From a phage, in the sequence record PZ445425.1: DNA of 60,068 nucleotides. One strand, written 5' to 3'. The position numbers were made by a program, and so were the translations under genes. The notes below the pieces were generated by a model. The model made no database searches. It was not told the origin of the DNA and saw only the letters and a program-made list of their open reading frames with translations. This document shows positions 56,114 to 57,731 of the stretch, in pieces. Every line of letters starts with the position of its first letter. Within the stretch, counting starts at the first letter, position 1.

Positions 56114-56539
56114 ATGTCAGTAAATTTTGTCAAACAGCCAACTTTAAATACATGCGTTTCTGCGTGTTTGGCAATGATCCTTAATAAACCTGTTGAGAAG
56201 GTCATTGAGGAATTTCACAGTCGTTATTATAACAACTGGGAAATCACTATCAGCGAATATTTGACTAAAAATGGCGTCCAGCATCATTGTTCAGAAGGTG
56301 GTGGGCGTGAAACTTTGCATATGGGAGGTTTATTCCTGTGCACGGTGCCAAGTCTTAATATTCCTGGCGCATTGCACCAGATTGTGATTGATATGACGGA
56401 TCACAAGTTTATTGTGCATGATCCAATTAAAGGATGGGAAGGTAAAAAGTTCTATGTTGGTCCGGATCAAGATCCTGAGGAACCTGGAGCTTTTATCATT
56501 CATACTTGGGTCAAAGACGTTGAAATCCTGCCTTATTAA
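56114..56539 (+). CDS. papain-like cysteine peptidase (C39-like)
   Basis: QPTLNTCVSACLAMIL closely matches the C39 Q...C...ACLAMIL motif; downstream HQIVID His candidate. Confidence 0.5.
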   Translation: MSVNFVKQPTLNTCVSACLAMILNKPVEKVIEEFHSRYYNNWEITISEYLTKNGVQHHCSEGGGRETLHMGGLFLCTVPSLNIPGALHQIVIDMTDHKFIVHDPIKGWEGKKFYVGPDQDPEEPGAFIIHTWVKDVEILPY

Positions 56540-56601: not shown

Positions 56602-56787
56602 ATGACCAAACTATACGCCGGATTGTTTTTATTTGCGACGTTAATGTTCGCTGGACTTTATACCTATACAGTAGTCGAACAACCTTCCACGGTTATCCGA
56701 ATCTTTGCAAGTACAGGGCTTTGCATCTGTCTTATTCTATTTGTTTTATGCATTGTTATTATCCAAGACCAAAGGAAAGTTAAATGA
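56602..56787 (+). CDS. small membrane protein
   Basis: 61 aa with two hydrophobic helices; start codon follows a hairpin gtgtaccc...gggtacac. Confidence 0.45.
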   Translation: MTKLYAGLFLFATLMFAGLYTYTVVEQPSTVIRIFASTGLCICLILFVLCIVIIQDQRKVK

Positions 56788-57254
56788 CTGAAGAATGGAA
56801 AAGAATACCTTTATTTCCAAAGTATGAGGTTTCTACTTTAGGTAGAGTTAGGAGGGCTAACAACCACAAAATATTGACAGGCTGCATATTAGATGGTCGT
56901 AGACGTTATACTTTGCGTCACAATGGTAAGAAATACGGTGTTGATGCTGCAAGATTGATGTGTTACGCATTTCGTGGTCTTGTCGACGGTTATGAGAAAC
57001 TAGATGCACGACATCTTGATGGCAATCCTTTGAATAATGTATTATCTAACGTAGATTGGGGTACACGTAAGGATAACATGGTGGACATGGTTCATCATGG
57101 TAACGCTTGTCATTCGTTTACAAAGGAAGAAGTTCTAAGTATCCGGCAACGAGCAGATGCCGGGGAAAGTCAACACGCTATAGCAAGAAGTATTGGCAGA
57201 AGCGTATCCGTTGTTAACTGTATTGTATTAAGAAAGACTTATAACGAATATTAA
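56784..57254 (+). CDS. HNH homing endonuclease
   Basis: NUMOD4-like N-terminus (WKRIPLFPKYEVSTLGRV), HNH core HLDGNPLNN and C-terminal HTH-like segment. Confidence 0.7.
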   Translation: MTEEWKRIPLFPKYEVSTLGRVRRANNHKILTGCILDGRRRYTLRHNGKKYGVDAARLMCYAFRGLVDGYEKLDARHLDGNPLNNVLSNVDWGTRKDNMVDMVHHGNACHSFTKEEVLSIRQRADAGESQHAIARSIGRSVSVVNCIVLRKTYNEY

Positions 57255-57266
57255 TGGGGGTGGGTT

Positions 57267-57731
57267 ATCACTACTATTGCGTTCGATGGAAAAGTATTAG
57301 CTGCGGACCGTGGAGTTATGCGCGGGGAAGCTGTGACTGCTTATAAGAAAGTTCATAGCGTAAATGGACATCGTGGACGGTTTTTACTTGGCTTGTGCGG
57401 TTTGACGGCATTTACCGATCAGGTGTTGCGTTATTTTAATAGCGCGGAACCTGTTAAGTTCCCTGATATTAAACTTTACAGTAAAGATGATGATTACGGG
57501 CAAACTTGCGGTCTTGCTGTCACTCCGGAAGGTACTTGCCATTTTATTTATAATGATGGTACTTTGAGCGAGCCCATGCTGGATGGATGGGGATCTGAGG
57601 GTAGCGGTTGTGTGTTTGCCGCTGGTGCATTAGCCGCTGGTGCAAGCGCAAGCGAAGCTATTGAGCTGGCAATTAAACACACCACATGCGCATTCCTGGG
57701 AGTTGATACAATATCATTTGAGGGTTTTTAA
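57267..57731 (+). CDS. HslV/proteasome-beta-like Ntn-hydrolase peptidase, apparent non-AUG start
   Basis: Frame open from 57255; TTIAFDGKVLAAD, YKKV and GSEGSG segments align with HslV; no in-frame ATG/GTG/TTG precedes the catalytic Thr; ATC at 57267 follows a G-rich SD-like tract. Confidence 0.5.
   Translation: MTTIAFDGKVLAADRGVMRGEAVTAYKKVHSVNGHRGRFLLGLCGLTAFTDQVLRYFNSAEPVKFPDIKLYSKDDDYGQTCGLAVTPEGTCHFIYNDGTLSEPMLDGWGSEGSGCVFAAGALAAGASASEAIELAIKHTTCAFLGVDTISFEGF

What the first reader, a model, noticed from the sequence alone, without database searches (positions are those of the whole stretch)
56784..57254. HNH homing endonuclease directly upstream of, and in frame with, the HslV-like gene
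The NUMOD4-like N-terminus and HNH core mark a free-standing homing endonuclease. It lies immediately before the HslV-like gene that has lost any canonical start, which is consistent with a mobile insertion having disturbed the neighbour's start region.
Basis: partly seen in the sequence, partly recalled or inferred. Interest (0 to 1): 0.4.

Follow-up and report, generated by a model that had tools for sequence, protein, structure and literature searches.

The report
Homing endonuclease displaced a protease gene's start
A selfish HNH homing-endonuclease gene has inserted exactly onto the start codon of a phage HslV-like protease gene, taking that ATG for itself and leaving the intact protease gene behind a strong ribosome-binding site and a rare ATC codon, which probably still starts translation.

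Summary
Window 56784-57254 is an intact 156-aa NUMOD4/HNH/HTH endonuclease, related to I-HmuI. It lies directly upstream of an HslV-like Ntn-peptidase gene that has no ATG, GTG or TTG before codon 18. The window is coliphage SeppeHuegi (Seuratvirus).

All 33 HNH-less relatives that I read have ATG-ACC-ACA (or ACA-ACC) at the peptidase start. All 15 HNH-bearing loci have ATC-ACT-ACT.

Two corrections are needed:
- The "in frame" relation is incidental. Five of the 15 loci carry one extra G that breaks the frame.
- The peptidase gene is not dead. ATC sits exactly where the ATG was, 6 nt after a GGGGG(G)TGG Shine-Dalgarno. That site pairs at -9.7 kcal/mol, in the top 0.5% of positions in the window. 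The ORF is intact in all 7 complete HNH+ copies, and 31 of 34 variable codons are purely synonymous.

The family needs a start codon directly before Thr or Ser (144 of 150 representatives). I therefore favour AUC initiation, which is inferred and not shown.

The HNH alleles differ by dS up to 0.93 with dN/dS about 0.08, while the flanks are 96-99% identical. The arrangement is therefore old.

Verdict: an ordinary free-standing homing endonuclease with one unusual, testable consequence.

The parts
56602..56787 (+). Upstream 61-aa small hydrophobic ORF (PHROG 22841). Its TGA stop overlaps the ATG at 56784 as ATGA. In HNH-less relatives that same ATG is the start of the HslV-like gene.
56771..56779 (+). 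AAAGGAAAG, the ancestral Shine-Dalgarno of the HslV-like gene, now serving the HNH gene (-5.6 kcal/mol to the anti-SD).
   Evidence: (annotated RBS in Seurat)
56784..57254 (+). HNH homing endonuclease gene, 156 aa. NUMOD4 at aa 3-45, HNH core at aa 57-100 (His77, Asn85/89, Asn98), C-terminal HTH at aa 113-144. It uses the ATG that belongs to the HslV-like gene in relatives.
56789..57271 (+). The 483-bp insertion relative to HNH-less Seuratviruses. The boundaries are ambiguous by the ATGAC/ATCAC repeat. Linked polymorphism limits the cassette to at most 7 nt left of the ATG and at most 12 nt right of the ATC.
57256..57263 (+). GGGGGTGG, a Shine-Dalgarno-like element brought in by the insert. 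It pairs with the 16S 3' end at -9.7 kcal/mol, with 6 nt between the G-run (57256-57260) and the ATC. The G-run is 5 G in this window and 6 G in 5 of the 15 HNH-bearing loci.
57254..57256 (+). ATG overlapping the HNH stop (TAATG). It is out of frame with the HslV-like gene in both the 5G and 6G variants and has no SD (+0.1 kcal/mol). It opens only a non-conserved 30-codon ORF.
57267..57269 (+). ATC at the exact position of the ancestral ATG. It is the proposed near-cognate initiation codon of the HslV-like gene.
   Evidence: AUC initiation in E. coli: bioRxiv 10.1101/063800
57270..57275 (+). ACT ACT (Thr-Thr). These are synonymous third-position changes (ACC ACA or ACA ACC in all 33 HNH-less loci) and are completely linked to the presence of the HNH. 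They are candidate target-site immunity or co-conversion markers.
57267..57731 (+). HslV-like Ntn-peptidase gene, 154 codons. It is intact and identical in protein sequence to Seurat gp84 apart from codon 1.
57318..57320 (+). First canonical in-frame start (Met18), the one used by automatic gene callers (137-aa product). It has a weak SD (-3.3 kcal/mol), and starting here would delete Thr1 and the conserved Asp.

Best explanation
A free-standing, I-HmuI-like HNH homing endonuclease cassette of about 483 bp sits exactly on the initiation codon of the HslV-like Ntn-peptidase gene of a Seuratvirus. The endonuclease ORF uses the peptidase gene's former ATG, its Shine-Dalgarno and its ATGA overlap with the upstream 61-aa ORF.

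The 3' end of the cassette supplies a replacement translation-initiation region for the displaced peptidase gene. This is a strong G-rich Shine-Dalgarno (GGGGG(G)TGG), followed 6 nt later by ATC at the exact place of the old ATG.

I propose that initiator tRNA reads this AUC as a near-cognate start. Ribosomes terminating at the HNH TAA 12 nt upstream may help. The product would be fMet-Thr-Thr-Ile..., and Met removal would expose the N-terminal Thr nucleophile, as in the HNH-less phages, but probably at a much lower level.

What is shown: the insertion, its sporadic distribution, the ATG-to-ATC change that is completely linked to it, the strong SD, the intact and constrained ORF, and the HslV fold.

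What is inferred: endonuclease activity and homing, AUC initiation, coupling to HNH translation, and the idea that the linked ATC/ACT/ACT changes protect the element's own genome from cleavage.
For: Insertion and mobility:
- 33 of 33 HNH-less relatives align across a clean 483-bp gap.
- The same cassette occurs in 15 loci on different backbones. Upstream flanks are 85-99% identical and group with different HNH-less phages. Both the F6 and Y6 alleles of the peptidase occur in HNH+ loci.
- The HNH is intact in every HNH+ locus read, with dN/dS 0.07-0.09 and dS up to 0.93. The adjacent genes have dS 0.02-0.22.
- The protein has NUMOD4, HNH and HTH domains and matches I-HmuI.

Start codon:
- ATC in 15 of 15 HNH+ loci and ATG in 33 of 33 HNH- loci.
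- SD to anti-SD pairing before the ATC is -9.7 kcal/mol. That is in the top 0.5% of window positions and stronger than 92% of gene starts. The value is +0.1 for ATG 57254 and -3.3 for Met18.
- The 5G/6G length change leaves the spacing from the G-run to the ATC unchanged but breaks any fixed frame with the HNH or with ATG 57254.

Need for a start at this codon:
- 144 of 150 family representatives, from an unbiased HMMER scan, begin with a start codon followed directly by Thr or Ser.
- Asp and Lys are conserved together with a Gly-x-Gly motif, usually GSG.
- The fold is HslV/BPH.

The gene is still under constraint:
- The ORF is intact in 7 of 7 complete HNH+ copies.
- 31 of 34 variable codons are purely synonymous.
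- All 4 variable codons upstream of Met18 are synonymous, and 2 of them were seen only in HNH+ genomes.

AUC initiation is known in E. coli. It runs at about 1-2% of AUG, and Met is found at the N-terminus (10.1101/063800).
Against: - There are no expression data of any kind.
- AUC is a poor start (0.02-3% of AUG) and is discriminated against by IF3 (established knowledge).
- The last ~60 nt and first ~45 nt of the cassette are conserved as a whole. The invariance of the ATC could therefore be hitch-hiking or recombinational homogenisation rather than selection on the codon.
- The purifying-selection signal in the peptidase gene could be imported by recombination with HNH-less phages, in which the gene is certainly expressed.
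- A small local hairpin can pair the G-run with the ATC-ACT-ACT region, but it is not significant (z = -1.0).
- Cleavage activity and the target site of the HNH are untested.
Confidence: 0.6

Rival explanations
1. The insertion effectively switched the peptidase off. The gene is either not translated or is translated only from Met18 (ATG 57318), giving a 137-aa protein without the Thr nucleophile. It looks intact only because recombination with HNH-less phages keeps refreshing it.
For: - There is no canonical start before codon 18.
- Gene callers annotate the 137-aa product in every HNH+ contig.
- AUC is about 50-100 times weaker than AUG.
- The flanks of the cassette are clearly recombining.
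Against: - Met18 has a weak SD (-3.3 kcal/mol), whereas a top-0.5% SD sits in front of the ATC.
- The HNH alleles are old (dS up to 0.93), yet no HNH+ copy has a frameshift, a stop or a changed residue in codons 2-17.
- Two synonymous changes in codons 4-5 were seen only in HNH+ genomes.
- A Met18 product would lack Thr1 and the conserved Asp.
Confidence: 0.22
2. Translation starts at the ATG that overlaps the HNH stop (TAATG, 57254) and reaches the peptidase frame by ribosomal or polymerase slippage on the G-run. This gives a short propeptide, MG(G)WVI, that is removed to expose Thr. The variable G-run would act as a phase-variable switch.
For: - The ATG overlaps the stop of the HNH, which is a classic coupling arrangement.
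- The G-run is length-polymorphic and has toggled between 5 and 6 in at least four HNH allele groups.
- A run of 4 or 7 G would put the ATG in frame.
- One distant homologue (L031) does carry an N-terminal extension before TTIAFDG.
Against: - The ATG is out of frame in all 15 loci. No locus has 4 or 7 G.
- The 5G and 6G variants would need slips in opposite directions (+1 and -1).
- There is no SD for this ATG (+0.1 kcal/mol).
- G5-6 is short for efficient slippage (general knowledge).
- 144 of 150 family members have no propeptide.
Confidence: 0.06
3. The HNH and the HslV-like protein are made as one fusion protein by read-through of the TAA, because they are in the same frame, and the peptidase then cuts itself free.
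For: The two ORFs are in the same frame in the window and in 10 of 15 loci.
Against: - The frame is broken by an extra G in 5 of 15 loci, spread over four allele groups.
- TAA is the most efficient stop codon in E. coli (general knowledge).
- No read-through signal was found.
- The residue before Thr would be Ile, not the Gly typical of proteasome propeptide cleavage (established knowledge).
Confidence: 0.02
4. The missing start is a sequencing or assembly error in a G homopolymer.
For: The junction contains a G5 run, and one G fewer would put ATG 57254 in frame.
Against: - Fifteen independent assemblies (isolate genome, NCBI, ENA and Logan metagenomes) agree on the junction, with 5 or 6 G and never 4.
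- The ATG-to-ATC difference is a substitution, not an indel.
Confidence: 0.01

Closest known systems
I-HmuI (Bacillus phage SPO1 intron-encoded HNH nicking homing endonuclease, PDB 1U3E)
   Same: It is the only solved structure matched at a significant E-value (E = 4e-6, residues 4-109). The order of modules is the same: an N-terminal NUMOD4-type DNA-binding strand region, the HNH (beta-beta-alpha-metal) core with a conserved His...Asn...Asn, and a C-terminal helix-turn-helix. The size is similar (156 vs 174 aa).
   Different: This gene is free-standing between two protein genes, not inside a group I intron. No intron-like structure was looked for or seen. Identity is low. Whether it nicks or cuts, and where, is unknown.
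Free-standing homing endonuclease genes of T-even and T5-like phages (Seg, Mob, F-Tfl enzymes); mobE, which splits nrdA in Aeromonas phage Aeh1 (own knowledge, not checked in the library)
   Same: It is an intergenic insertion next to a conserved gene, with sporadic presence among close relatives. Tightly linked polymorphisms sit beside the insertion point. It is expressed by piggy-backing on host-gene signals.
   Different: Here the element does not sit between two complete genes, and it does not split a gene. It takes the neighbour's initiation codon and leaves a near-cognate ATC in its place.
Non-canonical start codons of E. coli infC and pcnB (AUU)
   Same: A near-cognate AUH codon preceded by a functional Shine-Dalgarno, decoded by initiator tRNA and giving low expression. 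According to 10.1101/063800, these are the only two confirmed non-canonical starts in E. coli.
   Different: The codon here is AUC, not AUU. There is no evidence of IF3-linked autoregulation. It arose through a mobile-element insertion. It has not been verified experimentally.
HslV / BPH / proteasome beta subunits (Ntn hydrolases)
   Same: For the displaced gene: the predicted fold (TM 0.6-0.73 to HslV and BPH), an N-terminal Thr directly after the start codon, and conserved Asp, Lys and Gly-Ser-Gly.
   Different: It is about 20 residues shorter than HslV, with a shorter first hairpin. No HslU-like partner was seen in the neighbourhood. Pfam Proteasome scores below threshold (E = 0.012).

Membership tests
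HNH endonuclease (HNH_3 / I-HmuI-like) | Sequence match to the HNH beta-beta-alpha-metal core with the catalytic His and metal-binding Asn residues | tested here: met
   Pfam HNH_3 scores 24.5 bits against a cut-off of 24.8, which is marginal. PHROG 59 gives E = 8e-33. In the I-HmuI alignment, H77-L-D-G-N...N-N...N98 are conserved. These residues are invariant in the 17 proteins of the 90% cluster whose sequences I read.
HNH endonuclease (HNH_3 / I-HmuI-like) | NUMOD4 N-terminal DNA-binding module | tested here: met
   Pfam NUMOD4 scores 33.3 bits against a cut-off of 23.4, covering residues 3-45.
Homing endonuclease gene (functional class) | Sporadic presence or absence at one precise site among otherwise collinear close relatives | tested here: met
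   The gene is absent from 33 of 33 collinear relatives and present at the identical site in 15 loci on several backbones.
Homing endonuclease gene (functional class) | The enzyme cleaves the element-less allele near the insertion site, and the element is inherited at super-Mendelian frequency in crosses | not testable with these tools
   This needs an in vitro cleavage assay and mixed infections. The only indirect hint is three fully linked third-position changes at the junction.
HslV / proteasome-beta Ntn hydrolase (the neighbouring gene) | Ntn-hydrolase alpha-beta-beta-alpha sandwich fold of the proteasome-beta type | tested here: met
   The AlphaFold2 model has pLDDT 97.1. The best Foldseek PDB matches are HslV (6kui, 1m4y, 1e94) and BPH (5ovs), with probability 1.00 and TM 0.64-0.73.
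HslV / proteasome-beta Ntn hydrolase (the neighbouring gene) | N-terminal Thr nucleophile plus conserved Asp, Lys and a Gly-x-Gly motif | tested here: met
   Thr-Thr follow the start codon directly. In the two family alignments (17 and 70 sequences), Lys and the Gly-x-Gly motif (usually GSG) are invariant or nearly so, and Asp is invariant in the first and at least 90% conserved in the second. Of 150 representatives, 144 start with Met (or a Leu/Val start) followed by Thr or Ser.
HslV / proteasome-beta Ntn hydrolase (the neighbouring gene) | Curated family-model score above threshold | tested here: not met
   Pfam Proteasome gives E = 0.012, 15.7 bits against a cut-off of 22.4. The protein is therefore HslV-like, a separate phage family (PHROG 1040), and not HslV proper.
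HslV / proteasome-beta Ntn hydrolase (the neighbouring gene) | Works with an HslU-type AAA+ partner | not tested
   None of the six neighbouring ORFs that I screened matched an AAA+ family. The rest of the window was not screened.
Genes with a near-cognate AUH initiation codon (infC/pcnB type) | Experimentally mapped initiation at the AUH codon | not testable with these tools
   Only the context was tested: SD at -9.7 kcal/mol with 6-nt spacing, the exact positional equivalence to the ATG of relatives, and the family's requirement for a start codon before Thr.

The most novel reading that the evidence does not exclude
The HslV-like peptidase of SeppeHuegi-type phages is translated from a conserved natural AUC initiation codon that was created by, and travels with, a homing-endonuclease cassette. 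The selfish element would carry its own repair kit, a strong Shine-Dalgarno plus a near-cognate start. This would keep the host gene alive at reduced dosage, possibly dependent on coupling to translation of the endonuclease. The ATG-to-ATC, ACC-to-ACT and ACA-to-ACT changes would at the same time make the carrier genome immune to its own enzyme.
Probability: 0.4. Interest if true: 0.55.

Novelty: new member of a known kind. Interest (0 to 1): 0.35.

Why it matters
By itself this is one more free-standing HNH homing endonuclease in a coliphage. GenBank already labels the ORF "putative homing endonuclease".

The added value has three parts.
- It shows, at single-base resolution, how such an element can take over a neighbour's initiation codon without destroying the neighbour.
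- It gives a concrete candidate for a natural AUC start codon. Only two non-canonical starts, both AUU, are confirmed in E. coli.
- It flags an annotation problem. Gene callers truncate the peptidase to a 137-aa product that would lack its nucleophile.

The system is easy to test. The BASEL collection holds both the HNH-bearing phage (SeppeHuegi) and HNH-less sisters (GottfriedDienst, KurtStettler, WildeMaa, VogelGryff) on the same host.

Tried and rejected
- Sequencing error in the G-run: rejected. Fifteen assemblies agree.
- Read-through fusion because of the shared frame: rejected. The 6G variants break the frame.
- ATG 57254 as the start: it is never in frame, has no SD, and its 30-codon ORF is not conserved.
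- Close relatives of the HNH in the phage collection: none by DNA, and none above 36% protein identity.
- Paralogues in the window: none.
- More HNH+ loci by scanning collections for the junction pattern: IMG/VR gave none, and the JGI metagenomes returned only the contig already known.
- Promoter, terminator or significant RNA structure at the junction: nothing above the shuffled background.
- Literature searches for SeppeHuegi, for Seuratvirus plus HNH, and for homing endonucleases with non-canonical starts: nothing on this locus.
- PLYYY01 looked at first like an HNH-less phage with a start-less gene, because its annotation begins at Met18. Its DNA has the normal ATG.
- The unrelated HNH downstream of the peptidase gene in slur01-type phages shows no sequence similarity to this one.

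Full report
**Identity of the window.** The 156-aa product of 56784..57254 belongs to a 90%-identity cluster. One member of that cluster is QXV84550.1, "putative homing endonuclease [Escherichia phage SeppeHuegi]", on a contig of 60,068 bp, which is the length of this window. The flanks are 92-99% identical to Seuratvirus phages (Queuovirinae) such as SLUR75, Seurat and CAjan.

**Observation.**
- Its product matches Pfam NUMOD4 above threshold, and HNH_3 and HTH_38 just below threshold.
- It matches PHROG 59 "HNH endonuclease" at E = 8e-33.
- Among solved structures it matches only I-HmuI at a significant E-value (1U3E, E = 4e-6). His77 and the Asn residues of the HNH core are aligned.
- The HNH stop (TAA, 57252-57254) is followed in the same frame by TGG GGG TGG GTT ATC ACT ACT ATT GCG TTC GAT GG. 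This runs straight into the HslV-like coding sequence, with no ATG, GTG or TTG until ATG 57318.

**The downstream gene really is HslV-like.**
- It matches PHROG 1040 "peptidase HslV family" at E = 1.5e-30.
- A profile of 17 homologues hits proteasome beta5, BPH and HslV at E about 6e-7.
- An AlphaFold2 model built on 70 homologues has mean pLDDT 97.1. Its best PDB matches are HslV from S. aureus, T. maritima and E. coli, and BPH (TM 0.64-0.73).
- The Pfam Proteasome model itself is below threshold. I therefore call the gene HslV-like, not HslV.

Thirty-three phage records align to the flanks in two pieces that span 814-818 bp or 750 bp, against 1301 bp in the window. They all lack about 483 bp. 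A 34th record matched only the first 111 bases of the query, upstream of the locus, and was not read.

I fetched one copy of each of the 30 distinct phages among these records, plus three IMG/VR loci, and read the junction in all 33.
- All have ...AAAGGAAA[G/A]TTAA ATG ACC ACA ATT..., or ATG ACA ACC in three.
- All therefore have a canonical ATG that overlaps the TGA of the upstream 61-aa ORF.

I then recovered 14 further loci that carry the same HNH, from NCBI, ENA and Logan assemblies.
- All 15 HNH+ loci, counting the window, read TAA TGGGGG(G)TGGGTT ATC ACT ACT AT..
- ATG-to-ATC, ACC-to-ACT and ACA-to-ACT are thus completely linked to the insert.
- The refuting case, an HNH-less phage with a start-less gene, was not found.
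- One apparent exception, PLYYY01, is annotated from Met18, but its DNA has the normal ATG.

**What the insertion did.** In relatives, the ATG at the position of 56784 starts the peptidase (MTTIAFDGK...). It has an annotated RBS (AAGG in Seurat) and an ATGA overlap with the upstream gene. In the window the same ATG starts the HNH (MTEEWK...). The endonuclease has therefore taken over the neighbour's whole initiation region. Polymorphic sites that vary in both HNH+ and HNH- genomes lie 7 nt upstream of the ATG and 12 nt downstream of the ATC. The cassette is tightly delimited, and it includes the ATC ACT ACT.

**"In frame" is incidental.** The G-run at 57256-57260 has 5 G in 10 loci and 6 G in 5 loci. 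The 6G form occurs in four different HNH allele groups.
- The HNH and the peptidase therefore share a frame in only two thirds of the loci, which argues against a read-through fusion.
- The ATG that overlaps the HNH stop (57254) is out of frame in both forms. No locus has the 4 or 7 G that would put it in frame.

**How the peptidase is probably expressed.** Three lines of evidence point to the ATC at 57267.
1. *Position.* It is the exact homologue of the ATG. An unbiased HMMER scan of 1.84 billion representatives shows that 144 of the 150 best family members begin with a start codon followed directly by Thr (132) or Ser (12). This is what an Ntn hydrolase needs if its nucleophile is exposed by Met removal. 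Asp and Lys are conserved, together with a Gly-x-Gly motif that is usually GSG.
2. *Context.* The 15 nt before the ATC pair with the 3' end of 16S rRNA at -9.7 kcal/mol, with 6 nt between the G-run and the ATC. Only 0.5% of positions in the window, and 8% of its gene starts, do as well. The values are +0.1 for ATG 57254 and -3.3 for Met18. The extra G of the 6G variants lengthens the SD without changing the spacing.
3. *Constraint.* The peptidase ORF is intact in all 7 complete HNH+ copies. Of 34 variable codon columns, 31 are purely synonymous. The 4 variable codons upstream of Met18 are all synonymous, and two of them (ATA, GCA) were seen only in HNH+ genomes.

Published measurements show that AUC initiates in E. 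coli at roughly 1-2% of AUG (range 0.02-3%), with Met at the N-terminus. Only two non-canonical starts, both AUU, are confirmed in E. coli (10.1101/063800). I therefore expect a real but strongly reduced output, perhaps helped by ribosomes terminating at the HNH TAA 12 nt upstream. That last step is inference.

**Age and behaviour of the element.** The HNH genes fall into at least three allele groups in the long contigs, and the cluster contains further variants.
- Between groups, dS reaches 0.93 with dN/dS 0.07-0.09, so the enzyme is under purifying selection.
- For the same genome pairs, the adjacent peptidase gene has dS 0.10-0.22 and the upstream 61-aa ORF has dS 0.02-0.05. In a sliding comparison with L006, the HNH is an island of 81-86% identity inside flanks of 96-99.5%.
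- The upstream flanks of HNH+ genomes cluster with different HNH-less phages. HNH+ loci occur with both the Phe6 and the Tyr6 allele of the peptidase.
- The cassette is therefore old and sits on several recombining backbones. This fits a homing element but does not prove homing.
- No close relative exists elsewhere: there is no DNA match and at most 36% protein identity in 50,697 phage records, and the next-best proteins among 5.8 billion are at most 41% identical.

**Caveats.**
- Both ends of the cassette are conserved as blocks, so the invariance of the ATC is not independent evidence of selection on that codon.
- Recombination with HNH-less phages could import the purifying-selection signal.
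- Nothing here measures expression or cleavage.
- The main rival, a silenced gene or a Met18-truncated and therefore inactive product, keeps about 0.2 probability.

**Comparison with known systems.** As an enzyme, this is a new sequence family member of the I-HmuI-like NUMOD4/HNH/HTH endonucleases. As a genetic element, it behaves like the free-standing homing endonuclease genes of T-even and T5-like phages (my own knowledge). What is unusual is the geometry. It neither sits between complete genes nor splits one. It takes the neighbour's start codon and leaves a near-cognate one. The closest precedent for the proposed initiation is infC/pcnB (AUU).

**Verdict.** Two corrections apply: the shared frame is incidental, and the gene was displaced rather than lost. 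It is an ordinary kind of element with one unusual, cheaply testable consequence. Interest is 0.35.

Noticed in passing
window 57256-57260; L005, L008, L048, L049, L051 at the same place: The G-run between the HNH stop and the ATC is length-polymorphic: 5 G in 10 loci and 6 G in 5. It has toggled in at least four HNH allele groups, yet it is never 4 or 7 G, the lengths that would put the TAATG start in frame with the peptidase.
   Followed up: partly
L043 2251-2742 (SLUR76); also SLUR26, slur01, SHIN8 and SA126VB (L070-L073). The equivalent position in the window is 57731/57732.: Five relatives carry a different, unrelated 163-aa HNH endonuclease immediately downstream of the HslV-like gene, starting 1 nt after its stop. 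The same gene is therefore bracketed by two distinct endonuclease insertion sites within the genus. In SLUR76 the ORF annotated next after that HNH starts inside the HNH's 3' end.
   Followed up: partly
L031 2435-2962 (IMGVR_UViG_3300048813_000081): A distant homologue of the peptidase has no start codon before Thr-Thr. Instead it has a 22-residue extension, MHYKSLLLAVSMTLSSYMPAWS, that looks like a signal peptide with an A-x-S cleavage site directly before TTIAFDG. This suggests a secreted form whose Thr1 is exposed by signal peptidase.
   Followed up: no
window 56784-57254 compared with L006, L007 and L009: The HNH gene is an island of divergence: 81-86% identity and dS up to 0.93, inside flanks of 96-99.5% identity. 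This is the opposite of what a recent invasion would give.
   Followed up: yes
window 56802-56804 (HNH codon 7): Codon 7 of the endonuclease is hypervariable among otherwise near-identical alleles (Arg, Thr, Met, Ile).
   Followed up: no
L059 (phage PLYYY01) 385-849, and the gene calls in L003-L009: Annotation inconsistency. PLYYY01 annotates the peptidase from Met18 although its ATG is present. Automatic callers give a 137-aa product lacking the nucleophile in every HNH+ contig.
   Followed up: yes
window 57399-57542 (peptidase residues 45-92): This stretch gives weak hits to YVTN-type beta-propeller repeats: an S-layer protein, 1L0Q, at E = 0.04, and an 1870-aa representative matched in 20 stretches. 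This is probably a compositional or motif coincidence (GLAVTPEG...).
   Followed up: no
window 56114-56539: The 141-aa ORF two genes upstream has a faint N-terminal match to Peptidase_C39 (E = 0.037, below threshold). It might be a second peptidase-like gene just upstream of the lysis cassette.
   Followed up: no
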